Part shown: positions 1-13,943 of the stretch, piece by piece | Layout of the letters: each line of letters starts with the position of its first letter | Position numbering within the stretch: position 1 is the first letter of the stretch | Source: an uncultured delta proteobacterium | GTDB taxonomy: Bacteria; Desulfobacterota; Binatia; Binatales; Binataceae | Reading direction: 5' to 3' | Assembly (NCBI GenBank): GCA_963794325.1 | Contig: CAWCDG010000005.1 | Coordinates: forward strand, 256,001 to 320,000 | Length of the DNA stretch: 64,000 nt | Program-made: the position numbers and the translations under genes | Notes under the pieces: generated by a model | What the model saw: only the letters and a program-made list of their open reading frames with translations | What the model was told of the DNA's origin: nothing | The model's database searches: none

Positions 1-3148
<3,148 letters not shown>

Positions 3149-4240: not shown

Positions 4241-5248
4241 ATGAAAATAATTTCCACAGTTGCGCTCCAACCTGCGCATCGCGCCGCGATTGCGCACGCC
4301 GTGCCCGGAGCCGAGGTGCTCGACCGGGAGGTTCGGTCGCGAGAGGACTTCAGCGAGCTGCTGAGCGGAGGATGCGATGTCCTGCTGACGTTCCGGCTGC
4401 CGCACGACGCCGTGGAACGAGCGCCGAACATCCGCTGGATTCAATTGCTCAGCGCGGGCGCCGACCATGCGCTGGGCGGCCCGCTCAAGGGCAGCTCGAT
4501 ACCGCTCACGACTGCCAGTGGGATTCATGCGACGCCGATCGCGGAATACACGCTAGGGTCGATGCTGGCATATGCGCATCGGATTCATCTGGCGATTCGC
4601 GCGCAGATTCGCCATGAGTGGTCGCGTTCCCGCGTCTTAACCGAAAATATCGACGAGCTCCGCGGGCACACGATTGGAATCATTGGCTACGGGTCAATCG
4701 GCAGGGAAACTGCGCGGCTCGCGCAAACATTCGGGATGACGGTGCTGGCGCTCAAGCGCGACCCGGCCAACCGCGCAGATACTGGATGGTGTCCCGCGGG
4801 GCTGGGCGATCCCGACGGCAAAATTCCCGCTCGCTTCTACGGTCCCGATGAACGCGAAGCGATCTTGCGCGACAGCGACTACGTGTCGGTCACGCTCCCG
4901 CTCAGCGCGCACACGCGCAAATTTATCGGCGCACGGGAAATCGCCGCGATGAAACCGGGCGCATACCTGGTCAACATCGGGCGCGGCCAGGTGATCGACG
5001 AGGCCGCGATGATCGCGGCGCTGAAGGCGGGCAAGATTGGCGGCGCGGGGCTGGACGTATTCGAGCACGAGCCGCTCGAACCGGACAGTCCGCTGTGGGA
5101 CATGGAGAACGTGATTCTGACGCCACACGTGTCGGGCGACAATCGCGGGTATATGGACAAGGCCTGCGAGCTATTCGTAGAGAACCTGAAACGCTTCGCC
5201 GCCAATCGTCCGCTGCTGAACCTGGTCGATCCGAACCTCGGCTATTAG
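4241..5248 (+). CDS. D-2-hydroxyacid dehydrogenase
   Basis: GIIGYGSIG Rossmann motif, VNIGRG, LDVFEHEPL, TPHVSG. Confidence 0.93.
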   Translation: MKIISTVALQPAHRAAIAHAVPGAEVLDREVRSREDFSELLSGGCDVLLTFRLPHDAVERAPNIRWIQLLSAGADHALGGPLKGSSIPLTTASGIHATPIAEYTLGSMLAYAHRIHLAIRAQIRHEWSRSRVLTENIDELRGHTIGIIGYGSIGRETARLAQTFGMTVLALKRDPANRADTGWCPAGLGDPDGKIPARFYGPDEREAILRDSDYVSVTLPLSAHTRKFIGAREIAAMKPGAYLVNIGRGQVIDEAAMIAALKAGKIGGAGLDVFEHEPLEPDSPLWDMENVILTPHVSGDNRGYMDKACELFVENLKRFAANRPLLNLVDPNLGY

Positions 5249-5255
5249 CTTCACG

Positions 5256-5284
5256 TTGACACTGGCTATCGGCTGTTCTAGATT
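5256..5284 (+). promoter_or_regulatory. Sigma70-type promoter for the exosortase cluster
   Basis: TTGACA (5256-5261), 17-nt spacer, TAGATT (5279-5284); about 40 nt upstream of ATG 5326. Confidence 0.75.
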
Positions 5285-5325
5285 CACGCCGCGTTCCGCT
5301 AATCAGTATCGATACAAACAAAATA

Positions 5326-7074
5326 ATGGCGAAAGGTGCGCATTCGCTGGCACAGGGTACTACCCTGGAACCGTCGATCGCGCCGGATACGATTCCGATC
5401 GCGTCGGGCTCGCGTGATCTCAATCGCCAGGTCTCCGCACCCCCATACGTCGCGTTCCTGATCGTCGTTCTGTCCGGCGAAGTTATAGCTTACTACCGTT
5501 TTTCAAATTCAGCGGCGATTCTCATGCAAGGCGGTCCCGACGTCCGCTACTTGCTGATCATGCTCACGGAATGGATCCGCTACATGATCCTGGCTGCGGC
5601 AGCGACGACGATTCTGCTGAGCCGGAACGAGTTTGCCGCGACAGCGATGCGGATGTGGGTCACCCCGGTTCCGATTTCCAGACGCAAGAAAATTCTCGCG
5701 ATTCAAGTGATACTGGCGGGCGCGCTGGTGGCGTGGAGCGGCATCCGTCCCAGGTATTTTGCGTCGCCGGAAGCTGTCGCGGGCTGGGCGCTGGTCCGGC
5801 TGGCGCTGGCCATGGGCGCGATGGCGACGTTCGCGATCGCATTTACTCCACTCGAGGTCTGGCGCGAATGGTACCTCGCGCGGCCGGGCGCATTCCGAGC
5901 AGGCCTCGTCGTTGGACTCGTCGCCGGGCCCGTCCTGCGAAACTTCCTTCCAATGTTCTCTTCGGCAATGTGTGAGATTCCTATTCTGACGGCGGCGATG
6001 TACGACTTTACCATTTGGATCGCGGCCGCGACGCTGAGGGCGCTTGGACAGCATGCGGTGATCAACTGGCAGCGCCAGTCCATCGGGGTCCCGGGTTTCA
6101 GGGTTATTGTCTCGCCGCAATGCGCGGGAATCGATGGCATCGTTGTTATCACGCTTTTTCTTACGGCATATCTCTGGTTTTGCCGCCGCGATTTGCGATT
6201 CCCGGTTGCTCTGATCCTTCTTCCGCTGGGCATGATTCTGAGTTGGATTTTGAACGACGTCCGGCTCACGGCGTTGATAATGATTGGCCCGCACAATCCG
6301 AAGATCGCGATAGGATTTTTTCACACGATCGCAGGATGGGCCTTCCTCAATCTGCTGGGAATCGCGATGGTTGTATCGAGCCGGACTATGTCCATCTTCC
6401 GCGCGGAACCACTCGACGCGCTCCCGCAGGCGAGCGAGCGAACCTCGTCAGCGGACATGTATATCCTTCCGATGCTGGTGACACTCGCGGTCGGGATGCT
6501 GACCCGGCCGTTCGCGGCGTCACTCGACTTTCTATATCCGTTGACCGTGATTGCAACCGCCGCGGTCTTGTTCGCGTATCGCGGCAAGATCTTGGCACTC
6601 GGATGGAATCCAGACTGGACCGCGCCAGCGGCGGGCGCCGTGGTTTTTGCGATCTGGATTGCGATCGCGCGACAGTCCGGGACGTTGCACGATTCGGCGA
6701 TGGCGGCTTCGTTGCAAAGCCTTCCTGATTGGGACCGCTGCTGCTGGCTAGTATTCCGGGTGGCGGGCGCGGTGATCAGCGTGCCTATCGCGGAAGAGTT
6801 GTTTTTTCGCGGTTACCTGTTGAGAAAGCTGGTCTCGGCGGACTTCGAATCCGTCGATGCGCGGCAGTTCACCTGGATGTCTTTTCTAATCTCGTCGATG
6901 TTATTCGGCGTGCTGCATCGTAATTGGATCGGCGGCATCCTTGCGGGGATGGGCTTCGCAATCGTGCAATATCGGCGCGGACGGCTGACCGACGCAATCG
7001 TCGCGCATTCCGCCTGCAATGCGCTGGTGGCGGCGTACGTGATAGCGACGGGCAGTTGGGGACTATGGAATTAG
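5326..7074 (+). CDS. xrtE: Exosortase E-like / CPBP (CAAX) intramembrane protease fusion
   Basis: Polytopic membrane protein. Exosortase Cys-Arg-His triad in SPQCAGIDG, LNDVRL and FFHTIAGW. C-terminal CPBP motifs EELFFRGYL, FGVLH and AHSACN. Architecture matches the exosortase E/protease of VPEID-CTERM systems. Confidence 0.88.
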   Translation: MAKGAHSLAQGTTLEPSIAPDTIPIASGSRDLNRQVSAPPYVAFLIVVLSGEVIAYYRFSNSAAILMQGGPDVRYLLIMLTEWIRYMILAAAATTILLSRNEFAATAMRMWVTPVPISRRKKILAIQVILAGALVAWSGIRPRYFASPEAVAGWALVRLALAMGAMATFAIAFTPLEVWREWYLARPGAFRAGLVVGLVAGPVLRNFLPMFSSAMCEIPILTAAMYDFTIWIAAATLRALGQHAVINWQRQSIGVPGFRVIVSPQCAGIDGIVVITLFLTAYLWFCRRDLRFPVALILLPLGMILSWILNDVRLTALIMIGPHNPKIAIGFFHTIAGWAFLNLLGIAMVVSSRTMSIFRAEPLDALPQASERTSSADMYILPMLVTLAVGMLTRPFAASLDFLYPLTVIATAAVLFAYRGKILALGWNPDWTAPAAGAVVFAIWIAIARQSGTLHDSAMAASLQSLPDWDRCCWLVFRVAGAVISVPIAEELFFRGYLLRKLVSADFESVDARQFTWMSFLISSMLFGVLHRNWIGGILAGMGFAIVQYRRGRLTDAIVAHSACNALVAAYVIATGSWGLWN

Positions 7075-8118
7075 CGCCTCGACCTTTCCGGCTTACGACC
7101 GGGGCGAGCGCAGCGGTGTTCTCGATTTTGGCGGCCGGCCTGATTGCCGGTTCCATCCTCTATACACACATCGCCGCGACCCACCCGGGTGCACTGGTGG
7201 GAATGCCGGCGCTTGCGGGGATGAACAACCTGAGGCTGTCGCGCTTTCTGCTGGGCGCGGGGATCTGGGCTGCGGCCGTACTGATGTGGAGCTTCGCGCT
7301 CCAGCGGCTATTTCCGATGGACGCGTCCGATCGCATGATGACGCGAGGCCTCTGGTTCGATTCGATCTGGTTCGGCGGGGAGCTGGCGCGCCAACTGACC
7401 TGGATACCCCTGTATTTCGTTTTTCTCATCTGGATCAAGCGCAACCTGCTCGGCAACTTCGAATTGATTGCGCCAGGAACGATGCCACGCGCGATGCTGC
7501 TGATCGTAGGCAATATTGGCCGGTGATTTTCTCGCCTACCTAAGTCACATCGCACGGCATCGATTCGATTTTCTGTGGAATTTTCATGCCGTCCACCACT
7601 CGCAAAGGGAACTCAACTTATTCACGCAGCATCGCTTTCACGACCTTGATACTTTCGCCGACATGGCGATCAGGACTTTGCCGGTTTTGATTCTGACGCC
7701 GGGTCTCGTCGTGGTTGGCGTTTACAATACTGTGGCGCTGATTCATTTTCGCCTCTACCATTGCCCGATCCGATCGAACTACGGACCGTTGCGATACATC
7801 CTGGTGACGCCGCAGTCTCATCGCATTCATCACGCGAGCGATCCGCGCCTGCAGAATAGTAATTTCGGAATATTCTTTAGCGTGTGGGATCATATTTTCG
7901 GGACGCAGCATCGCTCCTACGATGAGTACGAAGTACAGCTCGGCCTTCAGGATGTTGCCTTTCCCGTCGAACAGGACGCTTCCGTAGGCGAATTTGTCGC
8001 AGCGTATGCGGCGCAACTGGTCTATCCGCTCGCGAGACTTCTACACGCGACTACACCCGCAACGGCGCCAGAGTTAGTGGGCAACAAAGGATTTGAAATA
8101 ACGAAGTCATCCGAGTAG
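7065..8118 (+). CDS. Fatty-acid hydroxylase / sterol desaturase family protein, split by a 1-nt frameshift near 7510
   Basis: ATG 7065 overlaps the xrtE stop. His boxes HIARH, HAVHH, HRFH, HRIHH and NFG..WDHIFGT. Removing one G at 7509-7510 joins the frames (..LIVAILAGDFLAY..). Confidence 0.85.
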
Positions 8119-8149
8119 ATAAGGCTGTCACTGGGGAGGATCAGATTGG

Positions 8150-8338
8150 ATGAGAGATGCGTTGCGAGTCGCCGGGGTTGTGGCGTTGATCGTATTCGTT
8201 CTCGTACCGGGAGCCGCGTTTGCGGGGGCCCCAGTGGCGGCGCCTGAGCTCGATCCAGGTCTAGGTATAGCGGGGTTGGCGTTGCTGGGTGGCACCGCCG
8301 CTTTTGTAGTCGAGCGCTATCGCCGGCGTTCGAAGTAA
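8150..8338 (+). CDS. APELD-CTERM micro-substrate 1 (core GAPVA)
   Basis: SD GGAGG, 25-aa signal peptide ending AFA, APELDP, hydrophobic helix, ERYRRRSK. Confidence 0.88.
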   Translation: MRDALRVAGVVALIVFVLVPGAAFAGAPVAAPELDPGLGIAGLALLGGTAAFVVERYRRRSK

Positions 8339-8382
8339 GAGACTGGTAACCGGGGGAGATTGGGTTCGTCAGAGAGGATCAG

Positions 8383-8568
8383 ATGGAGAATGCGTTGCGA
8401 GTGGCTGGGGTTGTGGGATTGATAGTCTTCGTTGTCGCGCCCAGAGCCGCGTTAGCAGGTGCGGTCGGCGCACCTGAGCTCGACCCGAGCCTCGGCATCG
8501 CGGGGTTAGCGTTGCTGGGTGGCACCGCCGCTTTTGTAATCGAGCGTTATCGGCGCCGCGCGAAATAA
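8383..8568 (+). CDS. APELD-CTERM micro-substrate 2 (core GAVG)
   Basis: SD GAGGA, signal peptide ending ALA, APELDP-TM-ERYRRRAK; paralog of its neighbours. Confidence 0.88.
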   Translation: MENALRVAGVVGLIVFVVAPRAALAGAVGAPELDPSLGIAGLALLGGTAAFVIERYRRRAK

Positions 8569-8587
8569 CCGGGAGGAGTCGGACTCA

Positions 8588-8773
8588 ATGAAAGATATGA
8601 TCCGCTTCGCGGGGGTCCTTGCGTTGATTGCATTCGTTCTCGCACCGGGAGCCGCGTTCGCTGGTATCACGCCGGCGCCTGAGCTCGATCCAAGCCTGGG
8701 TATCGCTGGGTTGGCGTTGATGGGTGGAACTGCAGCCTTTGTAATCGAGCGTTATCGGCGGCGTTCGAAATAA
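8588..8773 (+). CDS. APELD-CTERM micro-substrate 3 (core GITP)
   Basis: SD GGAGGAG, signal peptide ending AFA, APELDP-TM-ERYRRRSK. Confidence 0.88.
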   Translation: MKDMIRFAGVLALIAFVLAPGAAFAGITPAPELDPSLGIAGLALMGGTAAFVIERYRRRSK

Positions 8774-8792
8774 CCGGGAGGAGTCGGATTCA

Positions 8793-8975
8793 ATGAAAGA
8801 TACGATCCGAGTCGCGGGGGTCCTTGCATTGATCGCGTTCGTTCTCGCACCGGGAGCCGCGTTGGCGAGTGTGGGCGCGCCTGAGCTTGATCCAGGCATG
8901 AGCGTCGCTGGGTTGGCGTTGCTGGGCGGTTCAGCCGCTTTTGTAATCGAGCGTTATCGGCGCCGCCCGAAGTAA
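8793..8975 (+). CDS. APELD-CTERM micro-substrate 4 (core SVG)
   Basis: SD GGAGGAG, signal peptide ending ALA, APELDP-TM-ERYRRRPK. Confidence 0.88.
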   Translation: MKDTIRVAGVLALIAFVLAPGAALASVGAPELDPGMSVAGLALLGGSAAFVIERYRRRPK

Positions 8976-9002
8976 GACCTCGATCCGTTCCTTTGCAGAA
9001 GG

Positions 9003-10454
9003 CTATCGGGCCTGCAGTTTCGCCAAGAACCGTTCCTTTAATCCATCGAACGGGCCGTTCGACATGAACAGCGCGATGTCGCCTGAGCGCGCGTCGGCGA
9101 GCATCCGCTCGAGGATTTCATCGTTCGACGCGCACGCAATCGCATGCGCTCCGCGCGCGCTGATCGCACTGGCGAGCGCGCCAGTTTCGAGCCGCTCGTT
9201 CGGGGCGATCTGATCGTTCTCCTTGAAATAGACCGGCCCCAGGTAAACCCGCGAGGCTCGATCGAATGCGCACGCGAATGCGTTTTGGAAAACGTTACGC
9301 CGCGCCGTGTTCGAGCGTGGCTCGAACGCCGCAAGTATACGACGGCCGGGAAATCGCTCGGCGATCGCTTCGAGCGTGACGCCGATCGCCGTCGGATGAT
9401 GCGCGAAGTCGTCCACCACGGTCACTCCTGCCGCCTCGCCGATCACCTGCTGCCGCCGCACCACGCCTTTGAAGGTCCGCAGGCCGGCGGCGATCTCGTC
9501 GCCGGAAACTCCAAACGCGCTGAGCAGCACGTAAACGCCGAGCGCATTGGCGACGTTCATGCGGCCGCCGATCGGCAGATGGATCGATTCGTGGATTCGA
9601 TCGCCGTCGCGCGTCACCGAAAATCTCGCGCCGTCTGAGCCTACCGTCACGTCCGTCGCGCGATATTCACCTTCGCGCAGTCCGTAGGTGAGCCGTCGCG
9701 AGCGAGCGCTCGCGCTGACTTCGAGTGCGTGCGGAAAATCGGCGCATACCGCGAGCACGCGCCACGAATCCATCTGATCGACGAGCGCACGGAAGCTCGA
9801 CTTCACGTGCTCGAGATCGCGATAGATATCCGCATGATCGAATTCCACCGCGGTGATTATCGCGCCGCTGGCGCGGTAGTGCAGAAACTTCGGGCCTTTG
9901 TCGAAAAATGCGGTGTCGTACTCGTCGCCCTCGATCACGAAGTCGGCGCCATTGCCTAACCGGTAGTTCGAGCCGAAATCGCTTGCGACACCTCCAACCA
10001 GCATCGATGGGTCGCGGCCCGCGGCTTCGAGCACGTGCGCCATCATCGCGGTTGAAGTGGTCTTGCCATGCGTTCCCGTGATCATCAGCACGCGCCGGTC
10101 CTTCAGAAAAAAATGCCAGAGCGCCTCGGGCATCGAGAGATATGGAATCGGCGAAGCGAGGAGCGCGACGGCTTCGGGATTGGCCGGCACGATCACGTTG
10201 CCCACCACGGCCAGGTCGGGAGCAGGCGATAAATTCGCGGGCGAAAATCCGGTCATCAATTCGACTCGCGAATTTTTGAGCAGCGACAGGGTTGGCTCGT
10301 AGAGCTGATTGTCGGAGCCGGTGACAGAAAATCCGCGCTCGACCAGCATCCCGGCCAGCGCAGCCATCGCGGTGCCGCCGACTCCTACAAGGTGCACGCG
10401 GCGGACGGACGCTGGAATGCGCGCGAGGCGCGATGCGCTTGCAACATCAGCCAC
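9003..10454 (-). CDS. mpl: Murein peptide ligase (UDP-MurNAc:tripeptide ligase)
   Basis: GVGGTAM, GTHGKTTS, EGDEYDTAFFDKGPKF, DDFAHHP, FEPRSNT. Confidence 0.88.
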   Translation of the reverse strand: MADVASASRLARIPASVRRVHLVGVGGTAMAALAGMLVERGFSVTGSDNQLYEPTLSLLKNSRVELMTGFSPANLSPAPDLAVVGNVIVPANPEAVALLASPIPYLSMPEALWHFFLKDRRVLMITGTHGKTTSTAMMAHVLEAAGRDPSMLVGGVASDFGSNYRLGNGADFVIEGDEYDTAFFDKGPKFLHYRASGAIITAVEFDHADIYRDLEHVKSSFRALVDQMDSWRVLAVCADFPHALEVSASARSRRLTYGLREGEYRATDVTVGSDGARFSVTRDGDRIHESIHLPIGGRMNVANALGVYVLLSAFGVSGDEIAAGLRTFKGVVRRQQVIGEAAGVTVVDDFAHHPTAIGVTLEAIAERFPGRRILAAFEPRSNTARRNVFQNAFACAFDRASRVYLGPVYFKENDQIAPNERLETGALASAISARGAHAIACASNDEILERMLADARSGDIALFMSNGPFDGLKERFLAKLQAR

Positions 10455-11577
10455 TGGCGAGTGCGTCCATGATCAAATCGTGAATCTTCGGGCGGAAGTC
10501 GCGAATCTTCTGATTGTCGCGCCGCGGATGAACGCGGTTGGTCAGCATCGAGATCGCAACTTCGCTCTCCGGCTCGATCCAGATAGAAGTCCCGGTGAAG
10601 CCGAGATGCCCGACAGCCGCAGGCGAGAAGCGATGGCCCGAGCTGGAATGCTCGGCCGACGGCGTGTCCCATCCGAGCGCCCAGGTCGAGCCGGGCACGG
10701 TCGCATCGCGGGTCCAGAACTCGCGGATTATTTTCTGCGGCACGAAATCCGAGCGTCCCGCGTAACAGGCGATCAGCTCGCCAGCGATTCGATCGACCTC
10801 GCGCACCGGCGCGAACAGTCCCGCATGACCGGCGACTCCGCCCATCGCGAAGGCGTTCTCGTCGTCAACCTCGCCGACCAGCAGTCGCTTGCGTGAAGGG
10901 CAAATCTCGGTTGGCGCGAACATGTCGGGGACCGGCTCGAGGCGCCGCGACCGAACATGCGAGATGTCTATATAATCGGTCGCGCGCAAACCGAGCGGGC
11001 GGAAAATTTTCTCGCGGCAGAATCGGTTGAGCGCGACGCTCGATACCTTCTCGATCGTTTCGCCGAGCAGGATGAATCCAAGATCCGAGTATATAGTTTT
11101 GGTCGCGGGCGTCGCTTCGGGTTTCTCGCGATGAATCTCCTCGTAGGCGAACTCCTTGGCGCCGTAGCTCGCCATGAAATTCACCCGCCCGCCTTTTTCG
11201 ATTTCCGCAATCCGCTGATAGAACGGACGCCACGCCGCCAGGCCCGAACAATGCGCCAGCAGATGCCGAAACGTGATGACGGTCTTGCCGTGCACGCCAA
11301 AGTTCGGGAAAAAGCGCGTCGCGCGATCGTCGAGGCGAAACTTGCCGTCGCGCGCCAGAATCATCAGCGCGACCGTCGTCGCCAGCGCCTTGGTGAGCGA
11401 CGACAGGTCGTAAACAGTTTCGAGTTTGGCTGGCGAACGGGCCGGCTCGATCGACCTGAATCCGAACGCGCCTTCGAACGCGACATCCGCGCCGTGCCGC
11501 ACGACCAGCGTCGCGCCGGGAATCACCCCTTGCTCGACCGCGTCGTTGAAAGCCTGCTCGACCTCACTCCAACCCAA
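10447..11577 (-). CDS. Serine hydrolase, beta-lactamase/AmpC-like family
   Basis: SxxK (SLTK), YSDLG, GHAGLF, HLGFTGT, LTNRVHP. Confidence 0.9.
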   Translation of the reverse strand: MGWSEVEQAFNDAVEQGVIPGATLVVRHGADVAFEGAFGFRSIEPARSPAKLETVYDLSSLTKALATTVALMILARDGKFRLDDRATRFFPNFGVHGKTVITFRHLLAHCSGLAAWRPFYQRIAEIEKGGRVNFMASYGAKEFAYEEIHREKPEATPATKTIYSDLGFILLGETIEKVSSVALNRFCREKIFRPLGLRATDYIDISHVRSRRLEPVPDMFAPTEICPSRKRLLVGEVDDENAFAMGGVAGHAGLFAPVREVDRIAGELIACYAGRSDFVPQKIIREFWTRDATVPGSTWALGWDTPSAEHSSSGHRFSPAAVGHLGFTGTSIWIEPESEVAISMLTNRVHPRRDNQKIRDFRPKIHDLIMDALASG

Positions 11578-11600
11578 CGCCCATCCTCCAAAAACTGCCG

Positions 11601-12527
11601 TTAATGTGAAACGGCCGGCTCCGTAAAAATAATCCGGCGCGCGCTGGAATCGATTCGCGCGACCACGCCGAACGGAATCGTAAAATTCTCAGTGCCATGC
11701 CCGGCTTCGACGCCGTACAGCACGGGACATCCGAGGCCCGCGGTCTGCTCGGCAGCGAAGCGCGCTATCAATTGAGTCTCCTGCTCATTTCCATCGATCG
11801 CGCGAATCGCGCCGAAAACAATTCCCGCAACTCTGCCGAGCGCTCCCGACTGGCGCAACTGCACGAGCATCCGGTCGATACGATAAGCCTTCTCGCCGGT
11901 GTCTTCGAGGAACAAAATTCGCCCGTCGAAGCGCGGCTCGAACGGCGTGCCGATCATCGCAACCAGCACCGACAGGCATCCGCCGATAACTTCGCCCTGC
12001 GCTCTCCCGGGATGCATCGCTTCGCGCGCCTCGAGTTCGAAGCCGTCGAGCTTGCCGGTGAGCAGTCCTTGCAGGTGTTCGAGCGCGCGCGGACTCAAGC
12101 CTCGGGCAAAATCCATCGCGACCATCGGTCCGTGAAACGACACAATTCCTGCTAGATCGACCAGCGCGTTGAGCAGGAATGTGGGGTCCGAAAAGCCGAC
12201 GAAAATTTTTGGCGTGCGCGCAATCGCCTTGAAATCGAGGAGCGGCAGCAGCCGCCCGCATCCGTAACCGCCACGCGCAGAAAAAATCGCCTTGACCTCG
12301 GGGTCGGCGAAGTAGGTTTGAAGCTCACTCGCGCGCTCGCGATCATCGCCAGCTAAAATCCCGGAACGCGCCAGCACCCGCTCCGAAACTTTGACTCGGT
12401 AGCCCATCGAGCCAAGCACGTTGACGCCGCGCTCGAGATGCGCCCGCTCGATCGCGGCGGCGGACGCGACGACGGCTACCGTCTCGCCCGGTTGGAGCGC
12501 GTCAGGTTTGATTGGTTTGTTCTTCAC
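11601..12527 (-). CDS. ldcA: LD-carboxypeptidase (peptidase S66)
   Basis: RGGYG, GFSD nucleophile, HGPM, LFLED, GH. Confidence 0.9.
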   Translation of the reverse strand: MKNKPIKPDALQPGETVAVVASAAAIERAHLERGVNVLGSMGYRVKVSERVLARSGILAGDDRERASELQTYFADPEVKAIFSARGGYGCGRLLPLLDFKAIARTPKIFVGFSDPTFLLNALVDLAGIVSFHGPMVAMDFARGLSPRALEHLQGLLTGKLDGFELEAREAMHPGRAQGEVIGGCLSVLVAMIGTPFEPRFDGRILFLEDTGEKAYRIDRMLVQLRQSGALGRVAGIVFGAIRAIDGNEQETQLIARFAAEQTAGLGCPVLYGVEAGHGTENFTIPFGVVARIDSSARRIIFTEPAVSH

Positions 12528-12608
12528 GCTGTCGATCCGAATCCTACCAGATGGACCGCGCCAACGCCCGTCAGTCGCGCGAAATTACGCCGCTTCTGAT
12601 TTTTCGGA

Positions 12609-13913
12609 TCATTCGGCGACAGCCGGCGCGGCATGCTCTTCCATCCCGGTCAGCGAACCCACTTCCGAGAAACCGAGCAGCGCGGCCGTGACCCACAGAC
12701 CCGCCGCACCGATCGCGATCGTCGGACGGAGTCCAATCAGCCCGCCCGCGATTCCGGCGACGAGTTGGCCGCCGAGCACGCTGGCGAGCCTTACGAAGCG
12801 CAGGCTCGCGTTGACGCGGCCGAGCATCGGCTTGGGAGTGATCGTCTGGATCAAGCTGACGGCGTTGATGAAATAGACCGTCGCGGCGCTGTCACCGATT
12901 AGCTGCTGTGCGACCAGCAGCGCCACCGATATGGGTCCGCTGCCCCGCGCGATCGGCAGCAGCATGTATGCGACGCCCTCGATCGCGAGTCCCGCCACCA
13001 TCGCACGTCCGGTGCCGAAAATCTCGGCGCTACGGCGTGCCGCCAATGCGCCGAAGAGCGAGCTCGCGCCACCGACTGCGAAGATCATGCCGAGGACGCC
13101 GGGCCTGAAGCCGAGCGCATTGACGACGAACAGCATGTAGAGCGTGCCGACCAGGCTGTTCGCGAAGCCGCCGGCGATCACGTTGACTCCGAATGCGCGC
13201 AGACGGCCGTCGGCAAATATCAGTCGCGCCCCGGCCGCTATGTCGCCGGCTACGCTGGAATCGCGGGCACGCGGCGCAGGAACGGGTTCGGGCTTGCGGA
13301 TGAGCGCGATCGCAAGCGCCGACGCGAGAAATGATATCGCGTCGATCAGAATTGCGAAGGGCGCCGTCAGCCATTGCACGAGCCAACCCGATAGCGCGAA
13401 ACCGCCGGCTTCGGCGACCCCGGCGCTCGCGGTGAGCTTGCTGTTGGCGTCGATGAGATCTTCGCGCTCGACCAGGGACGGCAGGTACGATCGATAGGCG
13501 ACGTCAAAGAAGAGATCGAGTGCCGAGTACGCGAGCATCACGGCGCATAGCTGTCCCATCGTCAGCGAAGCGAACATCGCGGCAACTGGAATCGTTCCCA
13601 ATACAACGAAGCGGCCGATGTCGGTAGCGATCAGAATCGGGCGGCGTCGGACGCGATCCACCAGCACGCCAGCGAACAGGCCGAGGACCAGCGTCGGGAC
13701 AATCCCGGCCGCCGCCAGGAAGCCCATCTGAAATGGAGTCGCCTTGAGCGCAATCACCGCGGCGAAGCTGATCGCGACGTCGCCCATTCGCGTGCCGAAT
13801 AGAGAGACCGTCTCGCCGGTCCACAATTTCATGAAGTCGGCGTGGCGAAATAATACGCTCGTACGGCGCACGTCTGTGCCGATTGGTTCGTTGTCTTTTT
13901 CGTTCGAGTACAT
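12609..13913 (-). CDS. MFS transporter (DHA3/efflux-like)
   Basis: 12-TM pattern, F..LW.G.TVS.FG, GVLVDRVRRR motif A, LGRVNA. Start is ATG 13913 or GTG 13925. Confidence 0.9.
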   Translation of the reverse strand: MYSNEKDNEPIGTDVRRTSVLFRHADFMKLWTGETVSLFGTRMGDVAISFAAVIALKATPFQMGFLAAAGIVPTLVLGLFAGVLVDRVRRRPILIATDIGRFVVLGTIPVAAMFASLTMGQLCAVMLAYSALDLFFDVAYRSYLPSLVEREDLIDANSKLTASAGVAEAGGFALSGWLVQWLTAPFAILIDAISFLASALAIALIRKPEPVPAPRARDSSVAGDIAAGARLIFADGRLRAFGVNVIAGGFANSLVGTLYMLFVVNALGFRPGVLGMIFAVGGASSLFGALAARRSAEIFGTGRAMVAGLAIEGVAYMLLPIARGSGPISVALLVAQQLIGDSAATVYFINAVSLIQTITPKPMLGRVNASLRFVRLASVLGGQLVAGIAGGLIGLRPTIAIGAAGLWVTAALLGFSEVGSLTGMEEHAAPAVAE

Positions 13914-13943
13914 TTTAGGTCTCACGCGCGGCGCGCCGCGCAG

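What the first reader, a model, noticed from the sequence alone, without database searches (positions are those of the whole stretch)
5256..8975. Exosortase-protease fusion, lipid hydroxylase and four micro-peptide precursors: candidate new peptide/lipopeptide biosynthetic system
Seen: one apparent operon with a TTGACA-17-TAGATT promoter, an exosortase-CPBP fusion with all catalytic residues intact, an overlapping His-box hydroxylase/desaturase, and four paralogous 60-62 aa genes with APELD-TM-RRR tails. Known: exosortases cut near PEP-CTERM-like motifs, probably as transpeptidases; archaeosortase and rhombosortase substrates gain phospholipid-derived C-terminal anchors; XrtE-type fusions pair with small VPEID-CTERM proteins. 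Inference: no folded passenger domain is present. After signal-peptide removal only 3-5 residues precede APELD, so the product would be a tiny peptide (lipid-linked, cyclised or released) rather than an anchored surface protein. This reads as a RiPP-like signal or peptidolipid pathway tailored by the hydroxylase. I cannot confirm novelty without a search.
Basis: partly seen in the sequence, partly recalled or inferred. Interest (0 to 1): 0.92.

Follow-up and report, generated by a model that had tools for sequence, protein, structure and literature searches.

The report
Exosortase E module with hydroxylase partner
This is a soil acidobacterium's version of the little-studied exosortase E sorting system, whose targets are always tiny proteins, here joined by a dedicated membrane hydroxylase that hints the tiny peptides end up on a lipid.

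Summary
Window 5326-7074 encodes exosortase E (XrtE, TIGR04162, 204 bits against a cut-off of 150). It is followed by a fatty-acid-hydroxylase-family gene split by a one-base frameshift, then four tandem 60-62-aa genes: signal peptide, 4-6 residues, PELD, a membrane helix, ERYRRR.

"New system" overstates it. This is the known VPEID-CTERM/XrtE system. Pfam's VPEID-CTERM family already covers three of the four small genes. Tiny targets are the rule for this family: the best 150 of 2,837 relatives are 39-121 aa.

What is new is the hydroxylase:
- All 7 close hydroxylase relatives found in 165 genomes of the order lie beside an XrtE gene.
- In metagenomes, 27 of 30 loci with a hydroxylase at least 45% identical carry such small genes, in three gene orders. 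None of 50 loci with more distant hydroxylases do.

The small genes are under purifying selection (tail dN/dS 0.11-0.16). The few residues before PELD evolve almost freely (0.75). No long target exists elsewhere in the genome.

My best reading is that a short peptide is passed to a membrane lipid that the hydroxylase modifies. The chemistry is inferred, not shown. I rate it a new variant of a known kind, of moderate interest.

The parts
5256..5284 (+). sigma-70-like promoter candidate, TTGACA-17-TAGATT
   Evidence: 10 of 12 matches, the only site in 5000-9300, but not more than shuffles give; kept in L009 (TTGACT ... TAGATT) and L011 (TTGACA ... TAAGTT).
5326..7074 (+). xrtE: exosortase E domain (about residues 155-400) fused to a CPBP/Rce1-like intramembrane protease domain (about 400-581)
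   Evidence: TIGR04162 204.1 bits > 150; TIGR03008 147 bits. PF02517 58 bits. C266, R313, H333 and E491, R495, H561 kept in 40 of 40.
7065..7526 (+). hydroxylase gene, N-terminal membrane part (153 codons) up to the frameshift
   Evidence: matches residues 1-157 of the intact 350-aa ortholog at 68% identity. The start overlaps the xrtE stop by 10 nt.
7516..8118 (+). hydroxylase gene, catalytic part with three His boxes (HIARH, HAVHH, HRIHH), in the +1 frame
   Evidence: PF04116 88.1 bits > 31; matches residues 149-348 of the ortholog at 84% identity; one contig of run X1 lacks one base at 7511, which joins the two frames.
8150..8338 (+). micro-substrate 1 (62 aa): signal peptide ...AFA, then stub GAPVAA, then PELD, helix, ERYRRRSK
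   Evidence: 79.8 bits against the family profile; identical protein P0014 carries PF27847.
8383..8568 (+). micro-substrate 2 (61 aa): stub GAVGA
   Evidence: 75.0 bits. P0038 carries PF27847. TIGR04161 17.6 bits, below 33.
8588..8773 (+). micro-substrate 3 (61 aa): stub GITPA
   Evidence: 81.1 bits; 113 relatives of 51-72 aa.
8793..8975 (+). micro-substrate 4 (60 aa): stub SVGA
   Evidence: 84.4 bits; no TIGR04161 match. P0030 has no Pfam entry.

Best explanation
This is a dedicated exosortase E (XrtE)/VPEID-CTERM-type sorting module of an uncultured Acidobacteriota bacterium. A relative's record title, checked against the taxonomy, places it in the order named Candidatus Acidiferrales. A lineage-specific membrane hydroxylase has been added to the module.

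Shown:
- One XrtE gene, one hydroxylase gene and four tandem micro-substrate genes form a unit that is gained or lost as a block.
- XrtE is the only exosortase found in the genome.
- The four small proteins are the only proteins in the genome with its sorting signal.
- The hydroxylase subfamily occurs only next to such small genes.

Inferred:
1. Each small protein is exported by Sec and cut by signal peptidase I after an invariant A-x-A. This leaves a peptide of about 35 residues, with 4-6 variable residues outside, PELD at the membrane surface, one helix, and ERYRRR inside.
2. The exosortase domain (Cys266/Arg313/His333) cuts at PELD and passes the short N-terminal piece to an acceptor.
3. 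The fused CPBP protease domain cuts or clears the remaining helix, perhaps near the invariant Glu-Arg at its cytoplasmic end.
4. The acceptor is most likely a membrane lipid. The hydroxylase either prepares it or modifies the product. Lineages without the hydroxylase run the same module without that step.
For: Identity:
- TIGR04162 scores 204 against a cut-off of 150, with all catalytic residues kept.
- Pfam VPEID-CTERM is recorded on 3 of the 4 small proteins or their clusters.
- The architecture matches the 57-75-aa partners of annotated xrtE genes in Rhodobacterales.

Dedicated pairing:
- 36 of 40 XrtE loci from 39 genomes of the order have at least one adjacent small PExD-helix-basic gene.
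- One exosortase signature is found in the genome, and only four profile matches.

Signal peptidase site: across 48 diverse members, A at -1 and P, E, D of the motif are invariant. A at -3, P after D, a helix Gly, and the cytoplasmic E and R are kept in at least 90%.

Coding: the tail has dN/dS 0.11 in the window paralogs and 0.16 across 35 genes, at dS 0.56-0.65.

Hydroxylase link:
- All 7 orthologs of at least 51% identity in 165 genomes abut XrtE. The next best hit is at most 35% identical and lies elsewhere.
- 27 of 30 metagenome loci with a hydroxylase at least 45% identical carry small genes, in same-strand, convergent and upstream orders. None of 50 below 45% do.
- The 4 hydroxylase-linked XrtE rows form one group, SH-aLRT 99.

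Block gain or loss: same-genus genome G421 has 212 nt between the two flanking genes and no module.

Lipid transfer by relatives: ArtA and rhombosortase are linked to lipid attachment, per passages of Haft's preprint 10.1101/2023.06.07.544157.
Against: - No experiment on any XrtE system was found in print. The cleavage site, acceptor and product are all unknown.
- Thirty-five of the 40 XrtE loci have no hydroxylase within 7 kb, so the hydroxylase is not needed for the core reaction.
- In some convergent metagenome loci, no XrtE lies within the 1-5 kb that is held.
- The His boxes of this enzyme family face the cytoplasm (recalled), whereas PELD is outside. A direct action on the transferred peptide is therefore awkward.
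- The hydroxylase is frameshifted in this assembly. The only read evidence for an intact frame is one contig of one run, and that contig differs at 4 other places.
- The NCBIfam VPEID-CTERM model scores the small proteins at 13.9-17.6 bits or not at all, below its cut-off of 33.
- No RNA or protein evidence was obtained.
Confidence: 0.6

Rival explanations
1. The working product is the membrane-retained micro-protein itself, whole or as its C-terminal helix. It could be a small subunit or regulator of XrtE, of the hydroxylase or of another membrane complex. In this reading the few residues before PELD are only a spacer, and XrtE matures or turns the protein over.
For: - The helix and tail are the most constrained part (dN/dS 0.11-0.16), while the stub is nearly free (0.75) and varies in length.
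- There are 74 distinct stubs among 107 parsed relatives.
- The helix has kept Gly positions, and the cytoplasmic E and R are kept in at least 90% of 48 members.
- A cargo of 4-6 residues is hard to see as a surface structure.
Against: - The motif-helix-basic layout at the extreme C terminus is that of sorting signals that are removed in ArtA and rhombosortase systems.
- Tail conservation is also what recognition by a two-domain enzyme would need.
- Stub make-up is not free. Charged residues are 1%, the first residue is Gly in 51 of 65, and length is at most 8 in 60 of 65 hydroxylase-linked members.
Confidence: 0.15
2. The stub plus part of PELD is released as a free or head-to-tail cyclised peptide of 5-9 residues that acts as a signal or antibiotic. 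The tandem paralogs would give a small library.
For: - The conserved flanks with a hypervariable middle, and 1-6 tandem copies per locus, resemble precursor arrays of some RiPPs (recalled).
- A predicted N-terminal Gly in 79 of 107 relatives could serve as the attacking amine, as in sortase cyclisation (recalled).
Against: - No exporter, immunity or receptor gene is conserved beside the module.
- The stub dN/dS of 0.75 shows no clear positive selection.
- A lipid hydroxylase has no clear role in this reading.
- Other family members have stubs of 2-3 residues or Gly/His/Trp-rich stretches (read by eye), which is unlike a defined signal.
Confidence: 0.12
3. The hydroxylase is only a neighbour, or the module is decaying in this genome. 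On this view the frameshift is real and the locus is on its way out.
For: - There is a frameshift at 7509-7524 in the assembly.
- The module is present in only part of the genus: 18 of 46 other genomes have an XrtE match.
- The site is empty in G421.
Against: - Linkage holds in 27 of 30 loci across three gene orders, against 0 of 50, and in 7 of 7 orthologs. That is not what chance neighbours give.
- xrtE and all four small genes are intact and constrained.
- A 99.5%-identical contig lacks the extra base.
Confidence: 0.05

Closest known systems
VPEID-CTERM / exosortase E (XrtE) system of Rhodobacterales (NCBIfam TIGR04162 and TIGR04161; Pfam PF27847). I recall the abstract of Haft et al. 2012, J Bacteriol 194:36, describing it as a dedicated single-target system; the paper is not held.
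   Same: - The same exosortase-CPBP fusion, above the curated cut-off.
- The same tiny partner: signal peptide, short stub, [VA]PE[IL]D, helix, E/W-R-rich end.
- The partner gene lies next to the enzyme gene.
   Different: - XrtE is only 30-36% identical.
- The motif is APELD rather than VPEID.
- There are four (elsewhere 1-6) tandem partners downstream, instead of one upstream.
- A hydroxylase gene is translationally coupled to xrtE. None is annotated within 5 kb in the 3 Rhodobacterales loci read.
- The host is Acidobacteriota.
PGF-CTERM / archaeosortase A and GlyGly-CTERM / rhombosortase
   Same: A tripartite C-terminal signal is cut by a deeply membrane-embedded enzyme. In both systems processing is coupled to attachment of a lipid-derived anchor (passages).
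   Different: Their cargoes are large folded proteins; here the cargo is 4-6 residues. Rhombosortase is an unrelated serine protease. No lipid link has been shown for any bacterial exosortase.
Myxosortases (CPBP-family MrtC/MrtX/MrtJ) with MYXO-CTERM and JDVT-CTERM
   Same: A CPBP/Rce1-like glutamic intramembrane protease is tied to a C-terminal sorting signal. The weak NCBIfam hits are NF040914, NF040674 and NF033192.
   Different: All scores are far below cut-off (30-40 bits against 75-250). Those signals have an invariant Cys, which is absent here. Here the CPBP domain is fused to an exosortase.
Ornithine lipid hydroxylase OlsE and other fatty acid hydroxylase superfamily enzymes (PF04116)
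   Same: The same His-box di-iron membrane fold family. OlsE is the best NCBIfam hit.
   Different: It scores 88-101 bits against a cut-off of 475, so it is not OlsE. It carries an extra N-terminal membrane region of about 140 residues. Its substrate is unknown, and it has no solved relative by sequence or Foldseek.

Membership tests
Exosortase E, XrtE (TIGR04162) | Score above the curated cut-off of the family model | tested here: met
   204.1 bits against 150; 206.6 bits in the genome scan.
Exosortase E, XrtE (TIGR04162) | Exosortase Cys/Arg/His residues and a fused CPBP domain with its Glu/His motifs | tested here: met
   C266, R313, H333, E491, R495 and H561 are kept in 40 of 40. E490, H531 and N565 are present in the window protein. 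PF02517 scores 58 bits.
Exosortase E, XrtE (TIGR04162) | Adjacent small protein with a VPEID-type C-terminal signal | tested here: met
   Four in the window; 36 of 40 related loci.
VPEID-CTERM sorting domain (NCBIfam TIGR04161) | Score of at least 33 bits | tested here: not met
   13.9, 17.6 and 16.4 bits, and no match for ORF4. The model is narrow: of 3 partners of annotated Rhodobacterales xrtE genes, one passes (35.1 bits) and two fail (29.7 and 15.8 bits).
VPEID-CTERM (Pfam PF27847, release 38.1) | Pfam match on record | tested here: inconclusive
   Precomputed PF27847 is recorded on P0014 (ORF1), P0038 (ORF2) and P0001 (the cluster of ORF3), but not on P0030 (ORF4). The model is not in the local Pfam copy, so I could not score it myself.
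VPEID-CTERM (either model) | Motif, hydrophobic helix and basic cluster at the very C terminus, after a signal peptide | tested here: met
   Read. P, E, D and A(-1) are invariant in 48 members.
Fatty acid hydroxylase superfamily (PF04116) | Score above the gathering cut-off, with three His boxes | tested here: met
   88.1 bits against 31. H161, H165, H174, H177, H178, H252, H255 and H256 of the ortholog are invariant in 40 sequences.
Fatty acid hydroxylase superfamily (PF04116) | One intact reading frame in this window | tested here: not met
   There is a +1 shift between 7509 and 7524. The frame is intact in orthologs and in one near-identical contig.
Ornithine lipid hydroxylase OlsE (NF052566) | Score of at least 475 bits | tested here: not met
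   88.2 bits for the window piece and 100.9 bits for the intact ortholog.
Classical PEP-CTERM / XrtA-type system | PEP-CTERM proteins (TIGR02595) and a second exosortase in the genome | tested here: inconclusive
   No TIGR02595 match at E <= 0.01, but the control genomes were silent too. Only one exosortase signature was found, and that is XrtE itself. The genome is 85% complete.
RiPP (ribosomally made, post-translationally modified peptide) | A modified peptide product derived from the core region | not testable with these tools
   It needs mass spectrometry. Only the precursor-like layout is seen.

The most novel reading that the evidence does not exclude
XrtE together with this hydroxylase makes ribosomally templated lipopeptides. 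Gene-encoded peptides of 4-8 residues, in several variants per cell from tandem genes, would be joined by transpeptidation to a hydroxylated membrane lipid. That would give a new class of peptidolipid head groups. It would also be the first defined acceptor for any bacterial exosortase.
Probability: 0.2. Interest if true: 0.85.

Novelty: new variant of a known kind. Interest (0 to 1): 0.5.

Why it matters
Exosortases were predicted in 2006, yet neither their cleavage site nor their acceptor has been defined in bacteria (passages).

The XrtE branch is the smallest version of the problem: one enzyme and a cargo of a few residues. The strict tie between one hydroxylase subfamily and these micro-substrates is the first genomic clue I could find to what the acceptor might be, namely a lipid. 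It also gives a three-gene set that could be tested directly by mass spectrometry.

The family is large, at 2,837 clusters at 50% identity. Standard annotation mostly misses it, because the NCBIfam model is narrow.

The window's own copy is not special for such work. Cultured XrtE holders such as Paracoccus or Rhodobacter would be easier models, but they lack the hydroxylase.

Tried and rejected
- Complex prediction of the intact ortholog hydroxylase with its micro-protein (alignments A1 and A3): score 0.01 against a mark of 0.32. No verdict, and not evidence either way.
- Fold search: the AlphaFold2 model of the hydroxylase was good (pLDDT 85), but Foldseek against the PDB gave 0 matches at E <= 0.001. 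A profile search of PDB sequences gave 0 at E <= 1.
- Expression: no RNA holder was listed for the stretch, and the 4 runs found are DNA contigs of one study. Nothing can be said on transcription.
- 'Longer' protein search with ORF3: none of 865 candidates scored E <= 0.01. The tool rates this weak evidence.
- Literature:
  - 'VPEID-CTERM', 'XrtE', 'exosortase E': 39 papers hold a term and 20 were listed. None of those listed holds VPEID-CTERM, and the 'xrte' hits are xrTestis.
  - The one 'exosortase E' hit is 'exosortase epsH'.
  - 'VPEID', 'PF27847', 'TIGR04162', 'TIGR04161' anywhere in a word: 4 papers, unrelated by their titles in the search listing. I did not open them.
  - Haft et al. 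2012 (PMC3256604) is not held. What I say of it is recalled from its abstract.
  - Supplements were not consulted.
- Parsing slips:
  - Searches placed the signal-peptidase site wrongly. One search replaces them, with 107 of 113 parsed.
  - One search returned nothing because of a regex slip.
  - misplaced the site, and one search replaces it.
  - The site heuristic cuts too early, so I use only its lengths of whole proteins and my reading of the printed rows.
  - In one search the 'unlinked' set was anchored on the wrong column, so only the 'linked' figures are used.
- Programmed frameshift in the hydroxylase: rejected, because all orthologs are in one frame.
- Other conserved accessory genes: none was found beyond the small genes. 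A subset of 6-8 loci lies near polysaccharide genes.
- Counts that include genomes flagged unpublished:
  - XrtE matches in 53 of 165 genomes include G559 and G560. Without them the count is 51 of 163.
  - Any hydroxylase-family match in 77 of 165 includes G497, G553, G558, G559 and G560. Without them the count is 72 of 160.
  - None of the 7 close hydroxylase orthologs and none of the fetched loci comes from these genomes.
- Rows dropped:
  - L072 and L073 were left out of the XrtE alignment and tree because their xrtE is split.
  - L098 and L107 were left out as truncated or split.
  - G402's locus ends just after xrtE, so its hydroxylase cannot be seen.

Full report
**What is there.** On the + strand the window carries the following features.
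- A promoter-like site lies at 5256-5284 (TTGACA, 17 nt, TAGATT). It is kept in two orthologous loci.
- A 582-aa gene spans 5326-7074.
- A second gene starts at ATG 7065, overlapping the first gene's stop by 10 nt. It changes frame by +1 between 7509 and 7524, giving pieces 7065-7526 and 7516-8118.
- Four small genes lie at 8150-8338, 8383-8568, 8588-8773 and 8793-8975. Gaps between genes are 19-44 nt. Each small gene has a GGAGG-like site 4-10 nt before its ATG (read).
- The array ends 27 nt before the stop of a convergent Mur-ligase gene.

**The enzyme.** The first gene is exosortase E.
- NCBIfam TIGR04162 scores 204.1 bits against a curated cut-off of 150. The C-terminal third also matches the PEP-CTERM-associated CAAX-protease model TIGR03008 (147 bits) and Pfam Rce1-like (58 bits).
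- I aligned 40 XrtE proteins: the window's, 36 from the same order, and 3 annotated ones from Rhodobacterales plasmids. The exosortase residues C266, N310, R313 and H333, and the CPBP residues E491, R495 and H561, are kept in all 40. E490, H531 and N565 are kept in 33-36, and the window protein has them all.
- It is the only exosortase signature in the 85%-complete genome.

**The small genes.** All four share one plan.
- The plan is a Sec-type signal peptide ending P-G-A-A-[FL]-A, then 4-6 residues (GAPVAA, GAVGA, GITPA, SVGA), then PELDP, a Gly/Ala-rich helix, and ERYRRR-x-K.
- They are real genes. For the last 31 codons, dN/dS is 0.11 among the four paralogs and 0.16 among 35 genes of the close clade, at dS 0.56-0.65. 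The signal peptide gives 0.31-0.39.
- A database search found 113 clusters of relatives, all 51-72 aa.
- NCBIfam's VPEID-CTERM model scores them only 13.9-17.6 bits, or nothing for ORF4, below its cut-off of 33. That model is narrow, because it also fails two of three partners of annotated Rhodobacterales xrtE genes.
- Pfam 38.1 family PF27847, named VPEID-CTERM, is on record for ORF1, ORF2 and the cluster of ORF3. I could not score that model myself.

**Tiny substrates are the rule, not the novelty.**
- In three annotated Rhodobacterales loci, the gene just upstream of xrtE encodes 57, 64 and 75 residues with the same plan.
- In the window's own order, an XrtE homolog was found in 53 of 165 genomes. 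Of 40 loci fetched, 36 have at least one adjacent small PExD-helix-basic gene, usually upstream of xrtE.
- A profile of 48 diverse members found 2,837 cluster representatives at E <= 0.001 among 1.84 billion proteins. The best 150 are 39-121 aa, with a median of 68.
- Across those 48 members, A at -1 of the signal-peptidase site and P, E, D of the motif never vary. A at -3, the P after D, one helix Gly, and the cytoplasmic E and R are kept in at least 90%.
- No long protein with this tail exists in the genome. The four local frames score 75-84 bits against the profile, and the next of 82,098 frames scores 13 bits.

**The stub.**
- In 107 parsed relatives of the close clade (of 113), the stretch between the predicted signal-peptidase cut and PELD is 3-8 residues, with mode 4 in 57.
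- It starts with Gly in 79 and ends with Ala or Val in 103. There are 74 different sequences.
- Its dN/dS is 0.75 over 161 gene pairs of equal length. That is close to neutral, and it is not clear positive selection.
- Its make-up is restricted. In 65 distinct hydroxylase-linked members, charged residues are 1% and 60 stubs are at most 8 long.
- Elsewhere in the family, stubs run from 2-3 residues to some 40 and are often rich in Gly, His, Trp or Pro (rows printed, read by eye).

**The hydroxylase is the new part.** The second gene belongs to the fatty acid hydroxylase superfamily (PF04116, 88 bits; three His boxes) and is not OlsE (88-101 bits against 475).
- In the order, orthologs of at least 51% identity occur at 7 places in 6 genomes: G000, G406, G436, G439, G419 and twice in G418. 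Every one abuts an XrtE match. All other hits are at most 35% identical, cover only the catalytic core and lie elsewhere.
- From the hydroxylase side, I examined 80 metagenome loci, the best of 404 confirmed. Small PExD genes are adjacent in 9 of 10 loci at 70% identity or more, 7 of 7 at 55-70%, and 11 of 13 at 45-55%. They are adjacent in 0 of 50 below 45%. The three misses are two contigs that end within 190 nt of the gene and one short partial match.
- The gene order differs between groups. Small genes lie on the same strand downstream in the close clade, up to six in L115. They are convergent on the opposite strand in the 45-64% group, and upstream in L113 and L122. Linkage that survives rearrangement argues for a shared function.
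- The four hydroxylase-linked XrtE rows form one group in a quick tree (SH-aLRT 99).
- Against a universal role, 35 of the 40 XrtE loci have no hydroxylase within 7 kb. None was found in 400 other genomes sampled from the phylum. None is annotated within 5 kb of xrtE in the three Rhodobacterales loci.

**The frameshift.** The two pieces cover residues 1-157 and 149-348 of the intact ortholog, so nothing but the frame is lost. One contig of run X1 (851 nt, depth 11.6, 4 other differences) lacks one base at 7511, which joins the frames. The other three runs do not cover the place. The shift is therefore an assembly error or a strain variant, and I cannot tell which.

**A mobile block.** XrtE passes its cut-off in only 2 of 401 sampled genomes of the phylum and occurs in 18 of 46 other genomes of the genus. 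In same-genus genome G421, the two flanking genes (2-hydroxyacid dehydrogenase and the Mur ligase) are 212 nt apart, with no trace of the module. In G420 another gene fills the gap. XrtE genes of one genus also fall in several clades of the tree.

**How it most likely works.**
- Shown: the parts, their exclusive pairing, their conservation and their joint gain or loss.
- Inferred from the family (passages of 10.1101/2023.06.07.544157): after export and the signal-peptidase cut, the exosortase domain cuts at PELD and may pass the short N-terminal piece to an acceptor. ArtA and rhombosortase are thought to do this with lipid-derived anchors.
- My own inference: the CPBP domain deals with the leftover helix, perhaps at the invariant Glu-Arg end. 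The tie to a lipid-type hydroxylase points to a membrane lipid as the acceptor or product.
- A co-fold of hydroxylase and peptide gave no verdict.
- Rivals: the retained micro-protein is the product; or a free or cyclic peptide is released; or the hydroxylase is a bystander.

**Verdict.** The system is a known kind (XrtE/VPEID-CTERM), seen here in a new, hydroxylase-coupled, multi-copy variant in Acidobacteriota. I found no experimental work on any XrtE system in the held literature.

Noticed in passing
window 9003-13925, minus strand: A run of genes that looks like a peptidoglycan-recycling set: a Mur-ligase family gene (Mpl-like), a beta-lactamase-family serine hydrolase, an LD-carboxypeptidase (S66) and an MFS transporter. 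It converges on the XrtE module.
   Followed up: partly
L195 (G421) 6410-6622; L194 (G420) 5493-6731: The site of the module is variable within the genus. G421 has 212 nt there with no module. G420 has a 399-aa minus-strand frame there instead; I did not scan it against families.
   Followed up: partly
L115 653-1889: Six tandem micro-substrate genes follow the hydroxylase on one metagenome contig, the largest array seen.
   Followed up: no
L083, L084, L099, L103, L190 and proteins P0252, P0266, P0282, P0284: Many family members without a hydroxylase have stubs rich in His, Gly and Trp, with runs of HG or HH. This suggests metal binding (read by eye).
   Followed up: no
L014 1119-4016; L015 1130-4099: In two Rhodobacterales plasmid loci, a 965-989-aa protein gene lies directly upstream of the tiny VPEID-CTERM gene and xrtE. 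One is annotated as SdrD B-like domain-containing. It may be a further partner in the canonical system.
   Followed up: no
L011/L072, L012, L073, L191 (G439): xrtE is split by frameshifts or in-frame stops in several related genomes assembled in few large contigs. These may be sequencing errors rather than decay.
   Followed up: no
L076, L077, L081, L082, L085, L102, L104, L108, L109: A subset of XrtE loci in the order lies beside polysaccharide-type genes: a glycosyltransferase, a sugar-nucleotide enzyme, an epimerase and an export protein. This is usual for other exosortases (functions read by eye from sequences).
   Followed up: no
window 2-3148, minus strand: A transcription-repair coupling factor (Mfd-like; DEAD, Helicase_C, CarD_TRCF and UvrB_inter domains) runs off the start of the window.
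   Followed up: no
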